Positions 1,825 through 18,165 of a stretch of 64,000 nt of DNA are shown piece after piece. The stretch covers positions 53,132-117,131 of the forward strand of contig CAYSKO010000003.1 of NCBI GenBank assembly GCA_964431835.1, written 5' to 3'. The translations under genes were made by a program, and so were the position numbers. Numbering within the stretch: the stretch's first letter is position 1; every line of letters begins with the position of its first letter. The notes under the pieces are model-generated. The model saw nothing but the letters and a program-made list of their open reading frames with translations. It was not told the origin of the DNA and searched no databases. The DNA comes from an uncultured Planctomycetia bacterium. GTDB lineage: Bacteria; Omnitrophota; Gorgyraeia; 2-02-FULL-51-18.

Positions 1825-2099
1825 GCTTTCCCCGACAGGAGAAGTTTCGAAATGAACTTGAGCTCCCTGGCGCGCGCGTCCTTGGGGCTCTTACCGCTGA
1901 GGCAGTGATCGATATGGCGTTCGTAAACCTTGAGGGAAATCTGGTTCATCGCGGATCGCACGGCCGCGAGCTGGACGAACAACGTCTCGCACGAGCGCCC
2001 TTCTTCCAGCATCGCGCGCACGGCCCGTAGATGGCCCTCGCAACGCTTGAGGCGGTCGGCGGTGGCCTTATCGTATTGGTGCTTCACAGTATCCCCCAT
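1821..2099 (-). CDS. csoR: CsoR/RcnR/FrmR-family (DUF156) metal-sensing transcriptional repressor, copper-type C-H-C fingerprint
   Basis: 92 aa. Contains LKRCEGHLRAV and YERHIDHC (Cys, then His-x3-Cys), matching the CsoR metal-ligand pattern. Typical size and alpha-helical composition. Confidence 0.8.
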   Translation of the reverse strand: MGDTVKHQYDKATADRLKRCEGHLRAVRAMLEEGRSCETLFVQLAAVRSAMNQISLKVYERHIDHCLSGKSPKDARARELKFISKLLLSGKA

Positions 2100-2109
2100 G
2101 GGGGGATAC
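2088..2109. promoter_or_regulatory. perfect 22-bp palindrome AGTATCCCCCATGGGGGATACT centred on the csoR start codon; candidate CsoR operator (autoregulation)
   Basis: Read directly from the sequence. Interrupted C5/G5 tracts flanked by AT inverted repeats match the DUF156-family type-2 operator architecture. Confidence 0.6.
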
Positions 2110-2154
2110 TAGCAGAAGCGCAAGGAACGTGTCAACCCTAACCGCGAAAAGGAC

Positions 2155-2931
2155 TTATTTCTTGAACGCCGCGGGAAGGAGCGTCGTTCGCACGCGCAGG
2201 CTGAGCGCGTCGACGGCCATAACGACCGCGAACGTGAGGACGAGCGCCGAAAGGAGGTGACGGTACTGCAACATCTGGACGTATCCGAGCATGTAATACC
2301 CGATGCCGCCCGCGCCGACGAAGCCCATGATCGACGACGCGCGGATGTTGTACTCGAACATGAAAAAGAGCTGGGAGAGCGTCGCATTCGCGGATTCGGG
2401 CAGGATCGCGAAGCGGAAAAGCTGGAGCGGATTGGCGCCGGTGGCGCGCACGGCTTCGAGGACCTCCGGATCGACCCCTTCGAACGCTTCGTAGTAGAGC
2501 TTGCCGAGATACCCCACCGTGTAGAACGCGACTCCCATCACCCCCGCCGCGGGGCCGAGCCCGAGCGCCACCACGAAGACCACGCCGAAGAGGATGGAAG
2601 GCACGGTGCGAAGGATACCCACCACTGTGCGGGCCACCGTGCTCGCGCCGGGACCGAACAGAGAGCGGCTACCGAAAAACGCGAGCGGCATCGCCAGGCA
2701 AAGCCCCACGAGCGTGCCCGCAAACGCGATCTCGACCGTCTCGAGCATCGCCCACGCGAGTGGACCGAACGCGGCGGTGTCTGGGGGGAAAAGATCGCGC
2801 GAAAAAATTCCGAGGCGCTTCACCGCCGGCCAGAAGCCGCGCACGTCGAGAAGCCCGAGGTGGCCGAGAGTTCCGAGCGCGGCCGCGAGGAGGAGGCACC
2901 AAAAAAAACGCGAGCGATTCCGGTGATTCAT
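2155..2931 (-). CDS. phnE: phosphonate-type ABC transporter permease (PhnE family)
   Basis: 258 aa polytopic membrane protein with a BPD_transp_1-like EAA region (…SIMGFVGAGGIGYYM…). Start overlaps the phnC stop (ATGA). Confidence 0.75.
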   Translation of the reverse strand: MNHRNRSRFFWCLLLAAALGTLGHLGLLDVRGFWPAVKRLGIFSRDLFPPDTAAFGPLAWAMLETVEIAFAGTLVGLCLAMPLAFFGSRSLFGPGASTVARTVVGILRTVPSILFGVVFVVALGLGPAAGVMGVAFYTVGYLGKLYYEAFEGVDPEVLEAVRATGANPLQLFRFAILPESANATLSQLFFMFEYNIRASSIMGFVGAGGIGYYMLGYVQMLQYRHLLSALVLTFAVVMAVDALSLRVRTTLLPAAFKK

Positions 2932-3674
2932 CGGAGAAGCTCCACGATTCCTTCCGCCGTGAGGGTGGAGGCTTCCGCGTCGCGCACCACGCGGCCTTCA
3001 CGCATCACGATCACGCGGTCGGCGTATTCAGCCGCGGTGTCGGCATCGTGCGTGGTCACGATGAATCCGAGACCTTGCCCCGCGAGCGCGCGGATCATTC
3101 CGAGGATCTCGTGGGACGTGACGGGATCGAGCTGGGAGACGAGTTCGTCGGCCAGGATGAGCTGGGGGCGCGCCATGAGAGCGCGCGCGATCGCCACGCG
3201 CTGGCGCTCGCCGCCGCTTAAGTTCCGCGCCGGACTCTCGGCCTTGTCGGCCAGGCCCATGCGCAGAAGGAGCCCTTTGGCCTCGTCGACTGTTTCCTTC
3301 GGGAATGCCTTAAAGAGCGATCGCCACGTGCCGGTGCGGCCGAGCGCGCCCGTAAGCACGTTGTCGAGGGCGGTCAGTCCGCGCACGAGCCCGAGAGACT
3401 GGGGGATGTAAGCGAGCGCAGGGCGGCACTGCACGCCGTTCCGGTGAGGCGAATCCGCCGAGGTGAGTTCCCCGTTCTGCGGCCGCAGAATGCCCTGCAT
3501 AATCTTGAGGAGCGTCGTTTTCCCGCAGCCGGAGCGGCCGAGAAGCATCGCCACCTCGCCGCGGCGGACGGTGGCCGAGACGCCTCGGAGGACGGGCGTG
3601 CGGTCGTCGTAGGAAAACCAGACGTCGTTCGCCGACAGTACCGGAGTCCGGCAGGCACCTTTCGAAGACTTCAT
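2928..3674 (-). CDS. phnC: phosphonate-type ABC transporter ATP-binding protein (PhnC family)
   Basis: Walker A GRSGCGKTT, ABC signature LSGGERQRVAIARAL, Walker B LILADE. Confidence 0.8.
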   Translation of the reverse strand: MKSSKGACRTPVLSANDVWFSYDDRTPVLRGVSATVRRGEVAMLLGRSGCGKTTLLKIMQGILRPQNGELTSADSPHRNGVQCRPALAYIPQSLGLVRGLTALDNVLTGALGRTGTWRSLFKAFPKETVDEAKGLLLRMGLADKAESPARNLSGGERQRVAIARALMARPQLILADELVSQLDPVTSHEILGMIRALAGQGLGFIVTTHDADTAAEYADRVIVMREGRVVRDAEASTLTAEGIVELLR

Positions 3675-4579
3675 TTCTTCTTCGATTCCTCGTACGGGAG
3701 TCGGGTTTTCGTGAGCATCTGGCGCAGGCCGTCCAGATGCTTTTCATCCGCCTCGGCGAACCGCACGAAGATGCCCGAGACGAATTTCCGCATGAGCGCT
3801 TTGCCTTCCTCGTCGTTCATGCCAAGGAGAGCACCCTTCAATTTTTCGGCAGATTCGCCCGTGAAGTCCTTCGAGAAAACAATCGCGTGCGAGGGAATCG
3901 GGCCCTGCTTCTCGACGGCCCGCGTGGAATCCATGGTCTCCCGGTACAGTTTCTCGGGAACATCGCCGGCGATGACGGTCACGTCGGCCTGCCCAGCTTT
4001 CAGGGCCTCGACCGCCTGCGCGTAGCCGCCGGAGAACGTGACACCCGCAAAAAATGCCTTCGGATCGGCGCCGCTTTCCGTCGCGGGAACGAGGCCGAGC
4101 TCGACAAGCTTCGCCAAAGGCGCGACGTAGCCGGACGTCGAAAGCGGGTTGGGAAACGCTGCGTTCTTCCCTTTCAAGTCCGACAGAGACTGCGCGGGCG
4201 AATCCTTTTTCACGATCCAGTACGAAAAATAGTAAGGCTCTTCCTTCTTTTCGCCGTCGATCAACACCTCGCGGATCTCGGCGAGAGCGACGCGCGCTTC
4301 GGCCTTTTCCACCGCGAGCGCCGCTGGCCAGGCGCCCATGAACGCCGCCTGCGCGTGCCCGAACCGCAGCGCCTCGACGACGCCGGCGTAGCTCGTCGGG
4401 AACGTGATTTCGACGTCCGCGCCCGTAGCTTTCTCGAGGCGTGCCTCGAGGTCTTTCGCGCGGTCGGTAAGCTCCGCGGGGGTCGACGTCGGCTGAACGG
4501 CGATGACGATCCTTTCTTTCGCGGAGGCCGCGGAAAGCGTCAGCAGAAAAACGGCGGCCGCGGAGAGAATTTTCTTCAT
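3671..4579 (-). CDS. phnD: PhnD/SsuA-type periplasmic substrate-binding protein
   Basis: Signal peptide MKKILSAAAVFLLTLSAASA. PhnD-like fold motifs (YVAPLAKLVELG, GGYAQAVEAL). Stop overlaps the phnC start. Start overlaps the tonB stop (ATGA 4576-4579). Confidence 0.7.
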   Translation of the reverse strand: MKKILSAAAVFLLTLSAASAKERIVIAVQPTSTPAELTDRAKDLEARLEKATGADVEITFPTSYAGVVEALRFGHAQAAFMGAWPAALAVEKAEARVALAEIREVLIDGEKKEEPYYFSYWIVKKDSPAQSLSDLKGKNAAFPNPLSTSGYVAPLAKLVELGLVPATESGADPKAFFAGVTFSGGYAQAVEALKAGQADVTVIAGDVPEKLYRETMDSTRAVEKQGPIPSHAIVFSKDFTGESAEKLKGALLGMNDEEGKALMRKFVSGIFVRFAEADEKHLDGLRQMLTKTRLPYEESKKK

Positions 4580-5268
4580 GGGGCGTTCCTTTCGTTGGAT
4601 TTCAGTTGGAATCGGACCGGGACCTCCGCCTCGGAGTCGACGGCGATGCCCCCGAGGCGTGCGGGCTGGAAACGCCAGCGGCGGACGGCTTCGATGGCCG
4701 CCCGGTCGAGCGAAGGAAAACCGGAGGTGCGGGACAGCGCCACAGAGGAGGGTCGGCCGTTCCGGTTCACCGAGACCGCAAGGAGGACGACGCCTTCCTC
4801 TCCCGCGCGACGGGAAGCTTCAGGATAGCGCGGCGGCGGATTGCGAAGGTAATCGGCGGACGCGCCGGAAACCGCGCCCGCACCGGCGCGCAGCGTGGTG
4901 GCGTCTTTGCCGGGAACGGGAGAGCTGCCGTCTCCGGAGACGACGGGTTTGGGAGCCGCCTGGGGCGGCTCGGGAAGCGAAGCGGTTTCGGCTTGCGGCG
5001 AAGGCACGGCCGGGACAGGGGGAGCGAGTGCTTCGGCGGGCGCGGCTTCGGGCGCCGGCGGCGCGGCGACGAGATCAACCTCGACGCTCGAGAGGCCAGC
5101 GGCGACGCCGTAGCGCGCCTCTTCAACGAGAAGGCGGCCGCCGCCGAACACGAGCGCGGCGTGAAGGAGAAGGGCTAGGCCCGCGGACAGCCACTTGTCC
5201 GAACGGCGGGGACTTTCGGACGGATACGCGCGCACGGCGACGGGGGGTTCTGCGAAGGCGACGTTCAT
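4576..5268 (-). CDS. tonB: energy transducer TonB
   Basis: N-terminal membrane anchor, Pro/Ala-rich spacer, and a C-terminal TonB_C domain (NPPPRYP…VVLLAVSVNRNGRPSSVALSRTSGFPSLDRAAIEAVRRWRFQPA). Confidence 0.85.
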   Translation of the reverse strand: MNVAFAEPPVAVRAYPSESPRRSDKWLSAGLALLLHAALVFGGGRLLVEEARYGVAAGLSSVEVDLVAAPPAPEAAPAEALAPPVPAVPSPQAETASLPEPPQAAPKPVVSGDGSSPVPGKDATTLRAGAGAVSGASADYLRNPPPRYPEASRRAGEEGVVLLAVSVNRNGRPSSVALSRTSGFPSLDRAAIEAVRRWRFQPARLGGIAVDSEAEVPVRFQLKSNERNAP

Positions 5269-5681
5269 GCGGCTTCCATGCCTTTCGTTTGAATGGACAC
5301 TTTTTCGATCCCGCGCTTGCGCGCTTCGTCGAGCACGCGGATGGCGGCACCGAATTTCGCGTTCTCGTCCCCGTTCACGAACACCTTCGCGTCCGGATCG
5401 GAAGCTTTGAGCGCGTCGAGCCGGGGGCCGAGCTCATCGAGAGAGAGCTTGTCTTTGTCGAAGTAGACGTCGCCCGCTTCGGTGACGGTGATAACCGCGT
5501 GCGCGTCGCGCTTCTCGGGAGCGGAGGTCGCCGCGGCCGGAAGCTTCACCGGAACGCCCTGGTTTTTCACCATCGACATCGACACCATCACGAACGTCGC
5601 CAATAAAAAGAAGACGATATCGATGAGCGGAATGATCTCGATACGCGCGCGGCGTTTAGCGGTCGGTAAAGGAATTCTCAT
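5265..5681 (-). CDS. exbD: biopolymer transport protein ExbD/TolR
   Basis: RRARIEIIPLIDIVFFLLATFVMV TM segment plus the periplasmic ExbD fold. Confidence 0.85.
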   Translation of the reverse strand: MRIPLPTAKRRARIEIIPLIDIVFFLLATFVMVSMSMVKNQGVPVKLPAAATSAPEKRDAHAVITVTEAGDVYFDKDKLSLDELGPRLDALKASDPDAKVFVNGDENAKFGAAIRVLDEARKRGIEKVSIQTKGMEAA

Positions 5682-6273
5682 GGGGCTTTAAGAGGATTTC
5701 GAGGTGATTGGACGCGTCTTCTATCTCGTGCCGCGCTTCTTCGAGGCGGGCGCTCAAATAATTGAACGGGATGAGCGCGACGATCGCGATGCCCAGGCCG
5801 AACGCGGTGGCGATGAGCGCTTCGGCGATGCCGCCCGTGATGACGGCCGGCGCTTCGAGCTCGCGGTTTCCCAGAAGACCGAACGCGCGGATCATGCCCG
5901 TCACCGTGCCGAGTAGACCCAGAAGAGGCGCGAGCGTGACGATCGTGTCCAGCACGGACAGGCCCTGGTTAAAGCGCTTCAGTTCGCGGTTGGCCGCGCG
6001 CAGGAGCGCGCCCGAAAACGACTTCGCGCGGTTCGACAAGCCGTAGGAGAGGACGCGCGCGACGAAGTCGCCGCTGTCTTGTCCCGCGCGCGCGGCGGCG
6101 TTGAAGTCGCCCCGCTCCGCCTCCGCAAGGATGCGCTCCACCGTTTCCGGGCTGCGGCGCGTACGCTCGCGCCAGATGAAGAACATGCGCTCGAGGACGA
6201 CCGACAGGGCGACGACCGACGCGGCCAGAAGCGGCCACATGATCGGTCCGCCGCGTTTAATGAGCTCGGTCAT
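5656..6273 (-). CDS. exbB: MotA/TolQ/ExbB proton channel protein
   Basis: Three TM helices. Conserved TolQ/ExbB motif LGLLGTVTGMIRAFG…GGIAEALIATAFGLGIAI. Confidence 0.85.
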   Translation of the reverse strand: MTELIKRGGPIMWPLLAASVVALSVVLERMFFIWRERTRRSPETVERILAEAERGDFNAAARAGQDSGDFVARVLSYGLSNRAKSFSGALLRAANRELKRFNQGLSVLDTIVTLAPLLGLLGTVTGMIRAFGLLGNRELEAPAVITGGIAEALIATAFGLGIAIVALIPFNYLSARLEEARHEIEDASNHLEILLKPHENSFTDR

Positions 6274-6277
6274 CGGA

Positions 6278-8386
6278 TCACCACCGGACGCGGGCGCCCG
6301 CGTAGTACGTGCGATCGAGCGCCGGCTCGATCCCGTCCGCGCGAACCCGCGAGAAGTAAGTTTCGTCCGTGACGTTGCCGATACCCGCGAGGACCGTCAC
6401 CGCGTCCTTGTACACGGGGATTTCGGCGGTGAGATCCCAGACCTCGTATGCGGGAACCGCGCTCAGACCCGTCGTCCCGGCGAGGTTGTTGTCCGCCCAG
6501 TAGTGGTCCTCGACGAACGTTCCGATCAGCGCGACCTTGCCGCGGCCTTCGAGGAAACGCCAGACGAGACCCGTCTTGAAAACGTAATTCGGAGCGTACG
6601 CAGGTTCCTTGCCCGTCAGCGGGCCGCCTTCGAATTCGGCGTTCAGGAACGAGGCGCTGCCGTACCAACTGAGCGTGCCGAGCGGATGCTCCCGGTGCTC
6701 GACGCCGCGTACGTCGGAGGCGAAGCGGCAAAGGTCGATCTCGCCGGAGAGCTCGACGCCGTCGTACTGCACGTCGCCCACGTTCGCGCGCTGCGTCAGG
6801 GCACCGACCGAAAGCGTGCCAAAAAAATTCTCGTAGTCCGTGAGGAACGCACTCGCGTCGTACGTGGCCCAGGGCGTCGCGCGGCCGCGCACGCCCGCCT
6901 CGTACGTCCATGTCTTGCCTTCTTCGAGGTCGGTCGCGGGCAGCGTGTTGTTGCCCGACGGCGCGAGATCGTCGAACGACGGCGGTTTGTAGCCCTGCGA
7001 CACATTCCCGTAAAGCTCGGCCGACCACGGCAGCGCGTATTCCAAACCGAGGCCGAAGAGCGGCACCGCGTAGGTTTCCTCGATGTTGTGGAGCGGCGAC
7101 GTTTTCCCCGTGTTGAAGTTCTCCGTCACCTCGATCTGGATCAGTTCCGCGCGGACCGCCGGGCTCACCGATAACGCCCCGAACTGGAACTTGTTCTCCG
7201 CGAATACCGAGGCCGAGAGCGTGTTGTAGTCGAAGTCGAAGATCGGAGTCCCCTGGTCGGAAGGATAACTCGTCGTGCGGTCCTGCGAGCGCGGCGCGTC
7301 GGCGCCGTAGAAGAGTACGCCGCCGGTGAATGTGTGCCGTTCGCCCCAGGCGTCCCAGTCGTGGCGCACGCGGGACTCGATCGCGGCGGAGTACACTTCA
7401 CGGCGGTCCAGGTTCGCGGCGTTCGAGACATTTGTCGTGCGACGGTGGCTGAAGCGGTCGAAATAGCTGCCGTAGACGGTCGTGGTCCAGAGAGTCGCTT
7501 CCGAAAGGTCGCGTTCGAACGAGAGGCTCATCGCGTAACGCTCGGTCTCGAGACGGTCGAACGGACGGATCGTCTGATAACGGTCGGCCTCGTACTGCGC
7601 GAGCGTGAGACGTCCCGGTTCGCCGGCGTCCTTGTCGTGCGCGTCGAAATTCAGGATCCAGCGCGTGTCGGTCGCGGCGTCCATCGTCAGCTTGAAGCTG
7701 CCGCCGTAAAGCTCGAAATCCTCGTTTTCGCTGCGCTGACCTTCACTCTGGCTGTGGTGAAAGTACCCAAGATAACCCCAGCGGCCGGAAGTGCCGGTCA
7801 CGCGATTGAAGGTGCTGTACAGGTCGTCGGAGCCGAAAACATGCTGCGTGTCCGCCGTGAACGCGCGGTCGTCGACGGGATCGTAGGTGACGTAATTCAA
7901 TGCGGGACCCGGCTGCGGTCCGTAAAGAAGCGAGCTGCCGCCGCGGATCAGCTCCACGCGCTCAACCGCTTCGAGCGGTGGTGTGTAGTACGTCGTCGAG
8001 TATCCGTAGCGTTCCATGCCGATCGGAAGACCATCCTTCAAGGTCAGCACGTCCTGGGACTCATGCGGGTCGCCAATTCCGCGGTAATTGACGTTCACGT
8101 GTCCCTGGTTGTTCTGCTCGGAAACCAGAAGCCCCGGCAGCTGCGAGAAGGCCTGACGGTAATTGTTGTTTTGAATCTGCGGCTGATTTTGGAGGAGGGC
8201 CACCGACGTTTTCTTTCCGGCGAAGATACGCGTGCCTTCGACGTCCTGCTTGAACGATTCTCCCGACTCGGCAGTGACCAACACTTCTTTCATTTTAGTT
8301 TTTGGAGCCGCTGCGTCGGCAGAAGCGGGTGCGGCATGCAGACATAGAAGGGTGAAGGCCCCCAGAAGCGCAATCCGTACGTTCAT
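6278..8386 (-). CDS. TonB-dependent outer-membrane receptor
   Basis: ORF 6278..8398. The second ATG (8386) is preferred because GGAGA lies 8 nt upstream and MNVRIALLGAFTLLCLHAAPASA is a signal peptide. TonB box/plug (VLVTAE…), a long beta-barrel, and a C-terminal aromatic residue. Confidence 0.85.
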   Translation of the reverse strand: MNVRIALLGAFTLLCLHAAPASADAAAPKTKMKEVLVTAESGESFKQDVEGTRIFAGKKTSVALLQNQPQIQNNNYRQAFSQLPGLLVSEQNNQGHVNVNYRGIGDPHESQDVLTLKDGLPIGMERYGYSTTYYTPPLEAVERVELIRGGSSLLYGPQPGPALNYVTYDPVDDRAFTADTQHVFGSDDLYSTFNRVTGTSGRWGYLGYFHHSQSEGQRSENEDFELYGGSFKLTMDAATDTRWILNFDAHDKDAGEPGRLTLAQYEADRYQTIRPFDRLETERYAMSLSFERDLSEATLWTTTVYGSYFDRFSHRRTTNVSNAANLDRREVYSAAIESRVRHDWDAWGERHTFTGGVLFYGADAPRSQDRTTSYPSDQGTPIFDFDYNTLSASVFAENKFQFGALSVSPAVRAELIQIEVTENFNTGKTSPLHNIEETYAVPLFGLGLEYALPWSAELYGNVSQGYKPPSFDDLAPSGNNTLPATDLEEGKTWTYEAGVRGRATPWATYDASAFLTDYENFFGTLSVGALTQRANVGDVQYDGVELSGEIDLCRFASDVRGVEHREHPLGTLSWYGSASFLNAEFEGGPLTGKEPAYAPNYVFKTGLVWRFLEGRGKVALIGTFVEDHYWADNNLAGTTGLSAVPAYEVWDLTAEIPVYKDAVTVLAGIGNVTDETYFSRVRADGIEPALDRTYYAGARVRW

Positions 8387-8403
8387 TGATTTCTCCATAG
8401 CTA

Positions 8404-8481
8404 TTGAGACTTGGTCTCAATATGAAGTTTAAAAAAAGAGACTCAATATGAGAATGAGTCGCATTTGAGAATATATCTCAA
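8404..8481. promoter_or_regulatory. three palindromic TGAGA/TCTCA sites in the promoter region of the TonB-dependent receptor operon
   Basis: TTGAGACTTGGTCTCAA (8404-8420), GAGACTCAATATGAGAATGAGTC (8438-8460), TTGAGAATATATCTCAA (8465-8481). An AT-rich island directly upstream of the receptor start. Candidate metalloregulator operator; no match to a classical Fur box. Confidence 0.45.
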
Positions 8482-8509
8482 TAGGCTCGCTTTGTCAACC
8501 GAAAATTCT

Positions 8510-9118
8510 CTAGCTCTGGCGCAGGAGAGTCACCCACTCCGAAAGCGTGTCGAACACACCGCGACGCATGAGCATTACGCCGATGGCGGCCAGGAGCAGG
8601 TTCGCGAGCTTGGAAAGCGTGTTGGACCCCGCCTCCCCCAGCACGCGCGAAATGAAAGGCGAGAGCTGGAGAATCACCGCGCAGAGAAGCAGGTTCGCCA
8701 CGATCGCGAAGATCGTCGGCAGAAGCCCGAACGAGCCCAGGAGAATGAGTGAGGTCGTGAGCACAGCTGGGCCGACCATGAGCGGCACGGCCAGCGGCAC
8801 CACGCCGACTTCGTTCTCGGGAAGGTCGGAACCCTTGCCGTGGGAGAGAAGCAGGTCGCGGATCGATACGATGAAAAGCACCGCACCGCCCGCCACGAGG
8901 AAATCATTGATCGTGATTCCGAGCCAGCGGAACACGAGGCGACCGACGAACACGAAGACGAGCGCCACCGCGAGCGCGACGAGGGTCGAATTCCTGACCA
9001 ATGCTTCCCGATCGGCGGGTTTCATGCGCCGCGTCAGCGACAGATACGCCGGGATCATGCCGAGCGGGTCGACCGCGACGAAGATCGGCACGAACGCCAG
9101 GAAATACATTCGAAGCAT
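8510..9118 (-). CDS. marC: MarC-family (UPF0056) integral membrane protein
   Basis: 202 aa with six TM helices and MarC family pattern (…LAVPLMVGPAVLTT…). Confidence 0.7.
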   Translation of the reverse strand: MLRMYFLAFVPIFVAVDPLGMIPAYLSLTRRMKPADREALVRNSTLVALAVALVFVFVGRLVFRWLGITINDFLVAGGAVLFIVSIRDLLLSHGKGSDLPENEVGVVPLAVPLMVGPAVLTTSLILLGSFGLLPTIFAIVANLLLCAVILQLSPFISRVLGEAGSNTLSKLANLLLAAIGVMLMRRGVFDTLSEWVTLLRQS

Positions 9119-15865: not shown

Positions 15866-15921
15866 GTTATACGCCTAGAGCGATTAAAATATGGTTAAAA
15901 TGAAATTAGAACTTTTTAATC
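15866..15921 (-). promoter_or_regulatory. copy A of the 55-bp AT-rich stress element (promoter/operator candidate for the DUF2383 gene)
   Basis: TTATACGCCTAGAGCGATTAAAATATGGTTAAAATGAAATTAGAACTTTTTAATC on the plus strand. The egtD stop codon (TGA 15920-22) is embedded in the TTTTTAATC arm. On the coding strand TATAAC lies 33 nt before the ATG. Confidence 0.5.
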
Positions 15922-16894
15922 AAGCGTTCGTGAGGAAAAATAAGCCGAAATACTCGTTTTCGTCGGTCCACACTTCCTCGAGCTCAAGATCCGCGGCCAG
16001 CGCCAGACGCCGGAATCCGTCCACGTCGTATTTGTGACAGCGTTCCGTCAATATCGATTCCCCTTGTCCGAACCGGAACGTCTCCCCGTCGATCGTCGCG
16101 ATCTGCTCGCACGCACTCACCAGCCGCATCTCCACACGGCCTTCGCCCTCCGCGTAGACGGCCTCGTGCCGGAAATTATCCACGCGAATATCGCCGCCCA
16201 GCTCCCGGTTGATGCGAACGAGCAAATTCAGATTGAATGCGGACGTCAGCCCCTCTCGGTCGTCGTAAGCGCGCTCTAGAATCTCCCGCGGTTTCTTTAA
16301 GTCCACTCCGATGAGCAGGCCACCATTTGGATGGCAAAGCCTCGATATTTTCTCGAGAAGCTCGCGGGCTTGGGACGGTTCGAAGTTGCCGATCGTGGAA
16401 CCGGGGAAATAAACGATTTTGCGCGTCACGTAGCCGCCACACGGCGGTAGCGCGTAGAAATCGACAAAGTCGGCGAACACCGGGCAGACGTCGAGTCCCG
16501 GATAGGCGGTCGCAAAGCGCCGGGCCGTCTCGACCAGCGCGCCGCGGGCGATGTCGATCGGGACATAGCCGGCGGGAGACTGCATGCGGTCGAGAAGAAG
16601 CCGGGTCTTTCTCCCGGAACCGCTGCCGTATTCCACGAGCAGGCAGTCGGTCCCCATTCGCCCAACGATGTCGTCGATGTTCTCGCGCATGATCTTCGTC
16701 TCCACGCGACCGACGTAATAATCGGGGGTGTCGACGATGCGCTCGAAGAGCCACGACCCGCGTTCGTCGTAGAAATACTTGCACGGCAACTCTTTCTTCG
16801 GAAGGCGCAGACCGGCTAGAACTTCCTCCTTGAACGTCGTCTCCGGAGGAGAGAAATCGTATAACCGGGGCCCTTCGGTCTCCACGCGCATCAT
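15920..16894 (-). CDS. egtD: L-histidine N-alpha-methyltransferase (ergothioneine biosynthesis)
   Basis: YFYDERGSWLFERI, LLVEYGSGSGRKT, and the DUF2260 methyltransferase fold throughout. Confidence 0.85.
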   Translation of the reverse strand: MMRVETEGPRLYDFSPPETTFKEEVLAGLRLPKKELPCKYFYDERGSWLFERIVDTPDYYVGRVETKIMRENIDDIVGRMGTDCLLVEYGSGSGRKTRLLLDRMQSPAGYVPIDIARGALVETARRFATAYPGLDVCPVFADFVDFYALPPCGGYVTRKIVYFPGSTIGNFEPSQARELLEKISRLCHPNGGLLIGVDLKKPREILERAYDDREGLTSAFNLNLLVRINRELGGDIRVDNFRHEAVYAEGEGRVEMRLVSACEQIATIDGETFRFGQGESILTERCHKYDVDGFRRLALAADLELEEVWTDENEYFGLFFLTNA

Positions 16895-18165
16895 GAGCGG
16901 GCGTCCCGGGCGAGCCGGATGCCGGAAAACTGCCAGCGGTCCGACGGGCGGAAAAAATTACGGTACGAGACACGGATGTGGGAGCGCGGCGTCGCGCACG
17001 AGCCTCCGCGGAGAACCATGCGGTTCGACATGAATTTGCCGTTGTACTCCCCGAGCGCTCCGTCGGCTGGACGGAACCCCGGATAGGGAGCGTACGCGCT
17101 CGAGGTCCATTCCCAGACATCGCCGAAAAGCTGGGCGATCCCGCGGCCCCCGGGGGCGCGACGCGGACGGAGCCGCCCGGTTTCGAGAAAATTTCCTACG
17201 ATGCGTTCGGGACCCGCGGCGTATTCCCACTCAAATTCGGTCGGCAGGCGTGCGCCGCTCCACCGCGCGTAGGCGTCGGCTTCGTAAAAACTCACGTGGC
17301 AAACCGGCTCTTCGGGATCTACCGGACGCATCCCCTCCAAAGTGAAATGCCGCCAATCGCGCCCGTGACGCTCCCAGTACAGCGGGGCTTCCCATGTGTG
17401 GGTGCGCACTTCATCCCATCCGTCGGAAAGCCAGAGCTCCGGCCTGCGGTACCCGCCATCTTCGATGAACGCGGCGAATTCGCCGCACGTGGTCGGGCGC
17501 TCGGCCAAAAGAAATTCTTCGCAGCGGACACGGTGCCGCGGGGTCTCGTTATCGTAGGAAAAACCGCTCCCCGAGTGCCCCGCCTCCGTCTCCGCGGCGG
17601 GATACGCGCGCCAGCGCGCAGGCGTCCCGGCGGCCAGCTCCGCTTCTTCTTCGTCCGGCAAACGGTAGGCCGGCCGAAGCGGGTTCGACCCGAAGAGATG
17701 TTTCACGTCCGTCAGAAGGAGTTCCTGGTGCTGTTCCTCGTGATGGAGGCCCGTTTCGACGAGCCGTTCGAGCTCGGAGTCCGCGCCCGTGCCGATGAGC
17801 GCTTCCATTCGCGCGTCGACTGCGGCGCGGTAGCGCATCACTTCCGCGAGCGGCGGACGCGAAAGCAAACCGCGTTCTGCGCGCGGCTGACGTGGGCCGA
17901 GCGTTTCGTAGTACGAATTGAACAGATAGGCGTATTTGGGGTGGAACGGGCGGTGGCCTGAAACGAAAGGAGCGAGAACGAGAGTCTCAAAAAACCACGC
18001 CGTGTGTCCCAGATGCCATTTGACGGGACTCGCGTCGGGCATGGACTGGAGCGCGCAATCCTCGGCGCTCAGCGCCGAGGCGAGGGCCTCCGTGCGGGAG
18101 CGGACCTCCTTATAACGCGACACCAGGAGAAAATCGCAGGTGCGGGCATGCACGGTCGCGGCCAT
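16891..18165 (-). CDS. egtB: ergothioneine biosynthesis sulfoxide synthase EgtB (DinB_2 + FGE-sulfatase domains)
   Basis: DinB_2 N-domain HLGHTAWFFETLVL…HHEEQHQELLLTDV, then an FGE-type C-domain. Stop overlaps the egtD start (ATGA). Confidence 0.85.
   Translation of the reverse strand: MAATVHARTCDFLLVSRYKEVRSRTEALASALSAEDCALQSMPDASPVKWHLGHTAWFFETLVLAPFVSGHRPFHPKYAYLFNSYYETLGPRQPRAERGLLSRPPLAEVMRYRAAVDARMEALIGTGADSELERLVETGLHHEEQHQELLLTDVKHLFGSNPLRPAYRLPDEEEAELAAGTPARWRAYPAAETEAGHSGSGFSYDNETPRHRVRCEEFLLAERPTTCGEFAAFIEDGGYRRPELWLSDGWDEVRTHTWEAPLYWERHGRDWRHFTLEGMRPVDPEEPVCHVSFYEADAYARWSGARLPTEFEWEYAAGPERIVGNFLETGRLRPRRAPGGRGIAQLFGDVWEWTSSAYAPYPGFRPADGALGEYNGKFMSNRMVLRGGSCATPRSHIRVSYRNFFRPSDRWQFSGIRLARDARS

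What the first reader, a model, noticed from the sequence alone, without database searches (positions are those of the whole stretch)
8399..8509. Triple TGAGA/TCTCA palindrome cluster in front of the TonB-dependent receptor-ExbBD-TonB-PhnDCE operon
Two 17-bp palindromes TTGAGA-N5-TCTCAA (8404-8420 and 8465-8481) flank an everted copy (ACTCA-ATA-TGAGA, 8441-8453). They lie in a very AT-rich island directly upstream of the receptor start (8386). This is the expected position for a metal-responsive repressor operator, but the sequence does not match Fur, Zur, PerR or DtxR consensus boxes, so this may be a lineage-specific metalloregulator site.
Basis: seen in the sequence. Interest (0 to 1): 0.5.

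Follow-up and report, generated by a model that had tools for sequence, protein, structure and literature searches.

The report
Fur boxes before an iron-uptake operon
The palindromes are real and are very probably three binding sites for the iron-sensing repressor Fur, laid over the promoter and leader of an iron-uptake operon, which is an ordinary kind of switch seen here in a little-studied bacterial lineage.

Summary
TTGAGA-N5-TCTCAA occurs exactly twice in 64 kb, at 8404-8420 and 8465-8481, where none is expected by chance. A third, one-mismatch copy (TGAGAATGAGTCGCA, 8449-8463) accounts for the "everted" element.

On the minus strand a near-consensus sigma-70 promoter (TTGACA-17-TATATT) precedes the receptor gene. 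The distal box covers its -10 hexamer, the middle box covers the likely start site, and the proximal box lies just before the ribosome-binding site.

The motif is not a new operator. It has the 7-1-7/9-1-9 layout of Fur boxes. A matrix built from published, gel-shift-validated Caulobacter Fur sites ranks these three positions as the top three of the window.

The same box lies upstream of homologous receptor operons across Planctomycetota, Verrucomicrobiota and Omnitrophota genomes. It usually sits in the promoter of an operon that itself encodes a Fur-family protein.

In 120 metagenome contigs carrying the exact box, the adjacent ORFs are enriched for Fur (17 of 139), FeoA/FeoB, FTR1 and PhnD-like binding proteins. 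A control set from the same contigs shows none of these among its 25 commonest families.

Verdict: a Fur operator cluster, that is, a new member of a known kind. No Fur gene lies in the window and binding is untested. Interest is low.

The parts
8463..8483 (.). Distal Fur-type box, ATTTGAGAATATATCTCAATA (15-bp core 8466-8480). It covers the -10 hexamer.
   Evidence: Exact TTGAGA-N5-TCTCAA. It scores 26.1 bits with a matrix built only from other loci and 22.5 bits with the Caulobacter Fur matrix, the top hit of the window. The box is conserved in L205.
8446..8466 (.). Middle, imperfect Fur-type box, ATATGAGAATGAGTCGCATTT (core 8449-8463, one mismatch). It covers the inferred transcription start.
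   Evidence: One search gives the one-mismatch match. It scores 21.9 bits and 20.8 bits with the Caulobacter matrix, third in the window. The equivalent box in L205 is TTGCAACCAATTCTCATTG.
8402..8422 (.). Proximal Fur-type box, TATTGAGACTTGGTCTCAATA (core 8405-8419), in the leader 5 nt upstream of the ribosome-binding site.
   Evidence: It has perfect 9+9 arms. It scores 29.2 bits and 21.6 bits with the Caulobacter matrix, and it is conserved in L205.
8493..8498 (-). -35 hexamer TTGACA of the receptor-operon promoter.
   Evidence: The promoter scan gives 11 of 12 matches with a 17-nt spacer, against 0.1 expected in shuffles. The same TTGACA-then-box layout is seen in L007-L013, L021, L205, L207, L209 and L213.
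8470..8475 (-). -10 hexamer TATATT. It forms the centre of the distal box.
8431..8460 (-). Leader hairpin (arms 8455-8460 GACTCA and 8440-8445 TGAGTC) followed by UCUUUUUUU. It looks like a weak terminator or attenuator, and its role is unexplained.
   Evidence: It folds at -7.4 kcal/mol with z = -4.1. L205 keeps a hairpin plus T-run at the same place with a different stem sequence. The terminator scan does not call it, because the stem and loop fall outside its rules.
8392..8396 (-). Ribosome-binding site GGAGA, 5 nt before the ATG at 8386.
   Evidence: Read from the sequence. The gene call starting at 8386 is shared by metagenome annotations.
6278..8386 (-). TonB-dependent receptor, the first gene of the regulated operon.
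   Evidence: It has the Plug domain. Its best NCBIfam match is the siderophore-receptor subfamily, below the curated cutoff. There are 1086 homologues at E<=1e-30.
2155..6273 (-). The rest of the operon: ExbB 5656-6273, ExbD 5265-5681, TonB 4576-5268, PhnD-like binding protein 3671-4579, ABC ATPase 2928-3674 and permease 2155-2931.
   Evidence: Pfam hits. The genes overlap or abut on one strand. The same linkage is seen in L006, L013, L018, L020, L022 and L042.

Best explanation
The three palindromes are operator sites (Fur boxes) for a Fur-family, most probably iron-sensing, repressor that is encoded elsewhere in this genome.

When iron is sufficient, metal-loaded Fur dimers would bind the distal box, which overlies the -10 hexamer, and the adjacent middle box, which overlies the transcription start. 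That would block RNA polymerase. The proximal box in the leader would add cooperative binding or act as a roadblock. When iron is scarce, Fur would leave the DNA and the operon would be transcribed: receptor, ExbB, ExbD, TonB and the PhnD-like ABC transporter.

Shown here:
- the sites and the promoter overlap;
- the match to a validated Fur-box model;
- conservation of the box upstream of homologous operons;
- linkage of the box to Fur genes and iron-uptake genes.

Inferred: that Fur binds these sites, that iron is the signal, and that the sign of regulation is repression.
For: - **Statistics.** There are two exact 17-mers where none is expected. All three one-mismatch cores in 64 kb fall within 76 bp.
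- **Layout.** TGAGAAT-A-TATCTCA and TGAGACT-T-GGTCTCA follow the 7-1-7 Fur arrangement (read from the sequence).
- **Independent published model.** A matrix built from 24 Caulobacter crescentus Fur sites listed in PMC2724300 (11 regions validated by gel shift, two by footprinting) ranks 8464, 8403 and 8447 as the top three positions of the window. They score 22.5, 21.6 and 20.8 bits, against a best of 19.9 in 30 random windows.
- **Promoter overlap.** The promoter TTGACA-17-TATATT matches 11 of 12 consensus positions, and its -10 lies inside the distal box. The same -35-then-box layout recurs in at least 10 related loci.
- **Conservation in homologous loci.** Exact TGAGA-N5-TCTCA occurs 26 times in 1.13 Mb (the TBDR-homologue loci, four duplicate copies L001-L004, and the window), where about one is expected. 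Of these, 25 lie upstream of the receptor operon; 10 of the 26 are the window's own two boxes and their copies in L001-L004. A matrix built from the window's three boxes alone hits 37 of 75 loci within 1 kb upstream of the receptor, a density 26 times that elsewhere.
- **A Fur gene in the same operon.** In L007-L011, L013, L017, L021, L207, L209 and L213 the box lies in the promoter of a PF01475 Fur-family gene that heads the receptor operon. In L030 the strong box follows the Fur gene and precedes hemP-FTR1-receptor. In L204 the Fur gene ends the boxed operon.
- **Closest solved relatives.** The nearest solved structures to these Fur-family proteins are iron Fur proteins (C. jejuni Fur, 8e-33). 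PerR scores 1e-18 and Zur 3e-17.
- **Regulon content.** Of the ORFs next to exact ATTGAGAC-N3-GTCTCAAT sites in 120 metagenome contigs, 17 of 139 are FUR. There are also 7 FeoA, 6 PhnD-like, 5 FeoB, 4 ApbE, 3 FTR1, 3 FbpA-type binding proteins and 1 ChaN. In 139 control ORFs from the same contigs, none of FUR, FeoA or PhnD-like is among the 25 commonest families.
- **Centre of the motif.** The central triplet of those metagenome sites is TCA or TGA in 58 of 125 cases, which gives a 9-1-9 palindrome.
Against: - No Fur-family gene is detectable in the 64-kb window (tblastn), so the cognate regulator of this genome has not been seen.
- No binding or expression data exist for this lineage. The only verrucomicrobial report found (Akkermansia, PMC12552655) is an in-silico motif guess.
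- Agreement with the E. coli Fur consensus is modest, at 9-10 of 14 core positions.
- ZnuA and ABC-3 genes sit next to some boxes or Fur genes, so a Mn- or Zn-sensing paralogue is not strictly excluded.
- The palindromes would also fold as RNA hairpins in the leader.
Confidence: 0.85

Rival explanations
1. The boxes are bound by a Fur-family paralogue that senses another signal (Zur for zinc, Mur for manganese, PerR for peroxide, or Irr for haem) and not iron.
For: Fur-family boxes of different paralogues share the 7-1-7 layout (established knowledge from B. subtilis Fur, PerR and Zur). The NCBIfam scores of the linked regulators fall below every equivalog cutoff. ZnuA (2 of 139) and an ABC-3 permease occur next to some boxes. 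A ZIP transporter ends the operon in L209 and L210.
Against: The regulators score best against Fur models and solved Fur structures. The boxed genes are mainly FeoAB, FTR1/EfeU, HemP, FbpA-type binding proteins and siderophore-type receptors. Homologous receptor genes in Gammaproteobacteria carry canonical-looking TGATAAT Fur boxes at the same place (L054 and L064). No catalase or peroxidase genes were seen next to boxes.
Confidence: 0.08
2. The palindromes act as RNA structures in the 5' leader, as an attenuator, a ribosome-binding-site sequestering hairpin or a riboswitch-like element, and not as protein-binding DNA.
For: The 87-nt leader folds at -20 kcal/mol with z = -2.9, and the proximal hairpin pairs with part of the ribosome-binding site region. 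The middle hairpin is followed by a U-run. It is retained in L205 with a different stem sequence.
Against: The distal box overlies the -10 hexamer and so lies mostly upstream of the transcript. Across loci the arms keep their sequence (TGAGA/TCTCA) while the spacer varies. That is the pattern of a protein-recognised site and not of covarying base pairs. There is no Rfam match at E<=1. The box occurs in both orientations and at various distances from genes, including directly after the -35. Only the short GACTCA/TGAGTC hairpin shows compensatory change, and only between two sequences.
Confidence: 0.04
3. The site belongs to another regulator family, for example the CsoR/RcnR-type repressor encoded at the end of the gene cluster, or a Crp/Fnr-type or unknown lineage-specific factor.
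For: A CsoR/RcnR-family gene (PF02583) lies at 1821-2099, directly downstream of the permease. There is no Fur gene in the window.
Against: The CsoR-like gene has its own textbook operator, AGTATCCCCCCATGGGGGATACT (2088-2110), and its own promoter. No homologue of it is found in any of the related loci that carry the box. Fur-family genes are linked to the box in at least 12 receptor loci and in 17 of 139 metagenome flanks. Crp and Fnr sites have 6-bp and 4-bp spacers and not 5 bp (established knowledge).
Confidence: 0.03

Closest known systems
Fur-alpha box of Caulobacter crescentus and other Alphaproteobacteria (19-bp 9-1-9 palindrome; da Silva Neto et al. 2009, PMC2724300)
   Same: The arms are the same: listed sites include ATTGAGAACCATTCTCAAA and TTTGAGAATGGTTCTCAAT, i.e. 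TTGAGA-N5-TCTCAA. The length and symmetry match, the sites lie over promoters of TonB-dependent receptor and feoAB genes, and Fur acts there as an iron-dependent repressor. A matrix from those sites picks the window's three boxes as its top three hits.
   Different: In the Planctomycetota/Verrucomicrobiota/Omnitrophota loci the inner positions prefer GAC-T-N-A-GTC, whereas Caulobacter prefers GAAC/GTTC and often TGCGA. The host lineage is different, and nothing has been tested experimentally here.
Classical Fur box of E. coli and B. subtilis (GATAATGATAATCATTATC; 7-1-7 core TGATAAT-N-ATTATCA)
   Same: It shares the 15-bp 7-1-7 inverted repeat, the occurrence of several adjacent or overlapping boxes, the overlap with the -10 and the transcription start, and a position in front of iron-uptake operons, often with fur autoregulation.
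   Different: The half-site is TGAGA(A/C)T and not TGATAAT, and only 9-10 of 14 core positions match.
PerR and Zur boxes (B. subtilis TTATAAT-N-ATTATAA and TCGTAAT-N-ATTACGA)
   Same: They share the 7-1-7 layout and are bound by proteins of the same family.
   Different: Positions 2-4 of the half-site differ. The associated genes here are for iron uptake and not for peroxide defence or zinc uptake.

Membership tests
Fur box (operator of a Fur-family repressor) | A 15-19 bp inverted repeat with a single central base (7-1-7 / 9-1-9) | tested here: met
   The cores are TGAGACT-T-GGTCTCA, TGAGAAT-A-TATCTCA and TGAGAAT-G-AGTCGCA. The metagenome sites show the 9-1-9 form ATTGAGACT-N-AGTCTCAAT.
Fur box (operator of a Fur-family repressor) | Sequence match to an experimentally validated Fur-site model | tested here: met
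   With the Caulobacter Fur matrix (sites from PMC2724300) the three boxes score 22.5, 21.6 and 20.8 bits and are the top three of the window. The random maximum is 19.9. Against the E. coli 7-1-7 consensus only 9-10 of 14 positions match.
Fur box (operator of a Fur-family repressor) | Overlap with core promoter elements of the regulated gene | tested here: met
   The -10 TATATT (8470-8475) lies inside the distal box. The layout is repeated in related loci. The promoter is predicted and has not been mapped.
Fur box (operator of a Fur-family repressor) | Recurrence in front of iron-acquisition genes (a regulon) | tested here: met
   Homologous receptor operons carry it, with 37 of 75 loci hit and a 26-fold density. 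The metagenome flanks are enriched for FeoAB, FTR1, FbpA-type and PhnD-like binding proteins and FUR itself, against a control set. The source genome beyond the 64 kb could not be scanned.
Fur box (operator of a Fur-family repressor) | A cognate Fur-family protein encoded by the same genome | tested here: inconclusive
   None was found in the window. One is present inside the boxed operon in at least 12 related loci. The rest of the source genome was not available.
Fur box (operator of a Fur-family repressor) | Metal-dependent binding by Fur and iron-responsive transcription | not testable with these tools
   This needs a gel shift or footprint and expression data.
CsoR/RcnR-type operator | A G/C tract flanked by AT-rich inverted arms (for example TACT-G6-N-AGTA or ATACCC...GGGTAT) | tested here: not met
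   The 8402-8483 boxes have no G/C tract. A site of this type is present elsewhere, at 2088-2110, in front of the CsoR-like gene itself.
Known cis-regulatory RNA (Rfam family) | A match to a curated covariance model | tested here: not met
   There is no match at E<=1 in 8250-8650 on either strand.

The most novel reading that the evidence does not exclude
Two less ordinary readings remain open.

(a) The operon under these Fur boxes couples a TonB-dependent receptor to a PhnD-family (phosphonate/phosphite-type) ABC transporter. PhnD-like binding proteins also recur directly behind such boxes in unrelated metagenome contigs. This branch of the PhnD family may therefore import iron or an iron chelate and not a phosphorus compound.

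(b) The short hairpin and U-run between boxes 2 and 3 is kept with compensatory changes in the nearest relative. It may be a promoter-proximal attenuator or insulator that works together with Fur.
Probability: 0.3. Interest if true: 0.45.

Novelty: new member of a known kind. Interest (0 to 1): 0.17.

Why it matters
The result gives a usable Fur-box model, wATTGAGACT-N-AGTCTCAATw, for Planctomycetota, Verrucomicrobiota and Omnitrophota genomes, where I found no experimentally tested iron regulon. It also marks this receptor/ExbBD/TonB/PhnD-like ABC operon as iron-regulated. That helps annotation and the choice of iron-responsive promoters. It does not change what is known about Fur regulation.

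Tried and rejected
- **Fur gene in the window.** tblastn with four Fur proteins found none.
- **Source contig beyond the window.** The exact-protein look-up returned only short identical metagenome contigs, L001-L004, and the cluster look-up gave no names. A genome-wide regulon scan of the source organism was therefore impossible.
- **Wrong spacer.** My first cross-locus scan used N7 where the spacer is N5 and found nothing relevant. It was corrected.
- **Rfam.** The search of the leader found nothing.
- **Terminator scan.** It does not call the hairpin and T-run.
- **More relatives for the hairpin.** Look-ups of further close receptor homologues (P0004, P0009, P0011-P0014) gave operons with a different layout or too little upstream DNA. 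The hairpin comparison therefore rests on two sequences only.
- **CsoR-like repressor as the binder.** Rejected, because it has its own canonical operator and is absent from the other boxed loci.
- **Literature.** I found no paper describing a Fur box in Verrucomicrobia or Planctomycetes beyond an in-silico guess for Akkermansia, and none linking PhnD-like transporters to Fur.

Full report
**1. Observation**

The stated sequences are present at the stated coordinates.
- TTGAGACTTGGTCTCAA lies at 8404-8420.
- TTGAGAATATATCTCAA lies at 8465-8481.
- ACTCAATATGAGA lies at 8441-8453.

The two exact TTGAGA-N5-TCTCAA 17-mers are the only ones in the window, and none appeared in 100 dinucleotide-preserving shuffles. 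The proximal palindrome is longer than reported: TATTGAGAC-N3-GTCTCAATA, with perfect 9+9 arms.

Allowing one mismatch in the 15-bp core TGAGA-N5-TCTCA gives exactly three matches in 64 kb, all between 8405 and 8480. The third is TGAGAATGAGTCGCA at 8449-8463. The "everted" element is therefore better read in two parts. Its TGAGA half begins a third, imperfect box. Its ACTCA half belongs to a short hairpin arm.

The region is an AT-rich island, at 35-41% GC against a window mean of 62%.

**2. Surroundings**

All relevant genes are on the minus strand.
- A MarC-family membrane protein gene lies at 8510-9118.
- A 123-nt intergenic region follows.
- The TonB-dependent receptor gene is 6278-8386, with its ATG at 8386 preceded by GGAGA.
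- ExbB, ExbD, TonB, a PhnD-family binding protein, an ABC ATPase and a permease follow.

The promoter scan finds one sigma-70-type promoter on the minus strand. Its -35 is TTGACA (8498-8493), the spacer is 17 nt, and its -10 is TATATT (8475-8470). It matches 11 of 12 consensus positions, against 0.1 sites expected in shuffles.

The -10 hexamer is the centre of the distal palindrome. The middle box covers the likely transcription start, near 8463 (inferred). The proximal box sits about +42 to +62, immediately before the ribosome-binding site. No Rfam family matches the region.

**3. What the motif is**

Read as TGAGAAT-A-TATCTCA and TGAGACT-T-GGTCTCA, the sites have the 7-1-7 layout of Fur-family operators. 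They differ from the classical half-site TGATAAT at positions 4 and 6.

A literature search for the half-site led to the Caulobacter crescentus Fur study (PMC2724300). Its table of Fur sites includes ATTGAGAACCATTCTCAAA and TTTGAGAATGGTTCTCAAT, which are TTGAGA-N5-TCTCAA. The authors describe a 19-bp 9-1-9 palindrome equal to the "Fur-alpha box". Eleven regions were confirmed by gel shift and two by footprinting.

I built a matrix from 24 of the listed Caulobacter sites and scanned the whole window. Positions 8464, 8403 and 8447 are the three best positions of the 64 kb, at 22.5, 21.6 and 20.8 bits. These scores lie within the range of the training sites. The best score in 30 random windows of the same first-order composition was 19.9.

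**4. Related loci**

The receptor has 1086 homologues at E<=1e-30. The closest come from MAGs labelled Planctomycetia, Omnitrophota and Verrucomicrobiota.

Exact TGAGA-N5-TCTCA occurs 26 times in 1.13 Mb of sequence, where about one is expected. That sequence comprises 79 genome loci carrying a homologue, four duplicate copies of the window locus (L001-L004), and the window itself. Of the 26 occurrences, 25 lie upstream of the receptor operon, and 10 are the window's own two boxes and their duplicate copies.

A matrix built from those other loci alone hits the window only at 8402, 8446 and 8463, with 29.2, 21.9 and 26.1 bits. The next-best position scores 12.0. Conversely, a matrix built from the window's three boxes alone hits 37 of 75 loci within 1 kb upstream of the receptor. 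The hit density there is 26 times that elsewhere.

In loci where the box lies 0.6-0.8 kb upstream of the receptor, the intervening gene is a Fur-family gene. This holds for L007-L011, L013, L017 and L021 (PF01475 at E 1e-28 to 1e-32).

Closer relatives retrieved by exact-protein look-up show these layouts.
- L204: hemP-ExbB-ExbD-TonB-receptor-FTR1-Fur
- L207: Fur-hemP-ExbB-ExbD-TonB-receptor-FTR1
- L209 and L213: Fur-DUF2292-receptor-ExbBD-TonB

Each has the box immediately after or over a TTGACA-type promoter. In L030 the strong box lies between the Fur gene and hemP-unknown-FTR1-receptor.

The Fur-family proteins score best against iron-Fur models. Their closest solved structures are iron Fur proteins: C. 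jejuni Fur at 8e-33, Magnetospirillum Fur at 1e-22, PerR at 1e-18 and Zur/FurB at 3e-17.

Homologous receptor genes in Gammaproteobacteria carry canonical-looking boxes at the same place. Examples are AAATGATAATAATTCGCATTA in L054 and TAATGATAATGCTTCTCATTA in L064.

**5. Regulon test**

The free central triplet is TCA or TGA in 58 of 125 sites. Chance matches would not show that bias. It defines the 9-1-9 palindrome ATTGAGACT-N-AGTCTCAAT.

I took the ORFs that start within 200 nt on either side of the site (139 ORFs) and scanned them against Pfam.

| Pfam family or gene | ORFs next to a box (of 139) |
|---|---|
| FUR | 17 |
| FeoA | 7 |
| PhnD-family binding protein | 6 |
| FeoB | 5 |
| ApbE | 4 |
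| FTR1 | 3 |
| FbpA-type binding protein | 3 |
| ZnuA | 2 |
| ChaN | 1 |

A control set of 139 ORFs was picked by the same rule at positions at least 1.5 kb from any site in the same contigs. No family in it has more than 3 members. FUR, FeoA and PhnD-like are not among its 25 commonest families. The motif therefore marks an autoregulated iron-uptake regulon.

**6. Mechanism**

The best-supported reading is classical Fur repression. Holo-Fur dimers would occupy the distal and middle boxes over the -10 and the start site and exclude RNA polymerase. The proximal box would add cooperativity or a roadblock. Iron limitation would release Fur and turn on the operon.

The sites, the promoter overlap, the conservation and the genetic linkage are shown. 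Binding, the identity of the metal and the sign of regulation are inferred from what is established for Fur (for example PMC2724300).

**7. Rivals**

- **Another Fur-family paralogue (Zur, Mur, PerR or Irr).** This cannot be excluded by sequence. It is disfavoured by the profile and structure matches and by the gene content of the regulon.
- **RNA structure.** The leader folds at z = -2.9. However, the distal box lies over the promoter, and the arms are conserved in sequence and do not covary.
- **Another regulator family.** The CsoR/RcnR-type repressor encoded at 1821-2099 has its own canonical operator, AGTATCCCCCCATGGGGGATACT (2088-2110), and its own promoter. It has no homologue in the other boxed loci.

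**8. Residual oddity**

Between the middle and proximal boxes lies a hairpin, GACUCA-N9-UGAGUC, followed by UCUUUUUUU (minus strand, 8460-8431). It folds at -7.4 kcal/mol with z = -4.1.

The nearest relative with a comparable leader is L205, whose receptor is 72% identical. It keeps the -35, all three boxes and the T-run. It also has a hairpin at the same place with a different stem, CAACCAAU/AUUGGUUG (-9.6 kcal/mol, z = -4.1).

This looks like a weak terminator or attenuator. It might insulate the operon from read-through out of the upstream co-directional gene. Two sequences are not enough to decide, and further look-ups did not supply more.

**9. Novelty and verdict**

This is a real, conserved cis-regulatory element of a well-known kind. 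The lineage variant of the consensus (GAC-T-N-A-GTC inner positions) and its use across Planctomycetota, Verrucomicrobiota and Omnitrophota appear not to have been described. I found only an in-silico motif guess for Akkermansia (PMC12552655).

It is a new member of a known kind, and interest is low. The more interesting by-product is that a PhnD-family ABC transporter is a recurrent member of this iron regulon.

Noticed in passing
window 2088-2135 (minus strand) and genes 218-2099: A CsoR/RcnR-family metal-sensing repressor gene (1821-2099, PF02583) has a perfect C/G-tract palindrome, AGTATCCCCCCATGGGGGATACT (2110-2088), overlapping its start codon. It lies just after a sigma-70-like promoter (TTGACA 2135-2130, TAGTAT 2111-2106). 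Downstream are a His-rich secreted 99-aa ORF (1525-1824) and a signal-peptide protein with no Pfam match (within 218-1792). This looks like a separate, self-regulated metal (Cu or Ni?) module next to the Fur operon.
   Followed up: partly
window 2155-4579; loci L006, L013, L018, L020, L022, L042, L208; metagenome loci L095, L142, L151, L152, L171, L203: A PhnD-family (phosphonate/phosphite-type) binding protein with its ABC partners is repeatedly linked to this receptor family. It is also the first ORF behind exact Fur-type boxes in six unrelated metagenome contigs. The closest solved structures (PtxB, HtxB, PhnD, AioX, ArrX) match only at E about 1e-12. The substrate may be iron-related and not a phosphorus compound.
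   Followed up: partly
window 8431-8460 (minus strand); L205 1769-1797: A short hairpin and U-run in the leader, between Fur boxes 2 and 3, is kept in the nearest relative with a different stem sequence. It may be an attenuator, or a terminator for read-through from the upstream gene.
   Followed up: partly
L010 617-653, L011 7422-7442, L213 about 1728-1748; L046-L055 (Opitutaceae); L054, L058, L064: The box changes by lineage at the same promoter position. It is TGAAAC-N3-GTTTCA in some Omnitrophota-type loci and AGCGACTAAGTCTCATTA in Opitutaceae. In gammaproteobacterial homologues it is TGATAAT- or TGCGAT-type. This is a ready-made series for studying how Fur specificity drifts.
   Followed up: no
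L209, L210, L212, L213: A 61-69 aa DUF2292 protein is encoded between the Fur gene and the receptor in several relatives. Others have HemP (about 52-70 aa) in the same operon. The role of these small proteins in the Fur operons is unknown.
   Followed up: no
window 15920-18165 (minus strand): There is an adjacent pair of a histidine-specific methyltransferase (PF10017) and a DinB_2 + FGE-sulfatase protein. This is the domain pattern of the ergothioneine genes egtD and egtB.
   Followed up: no
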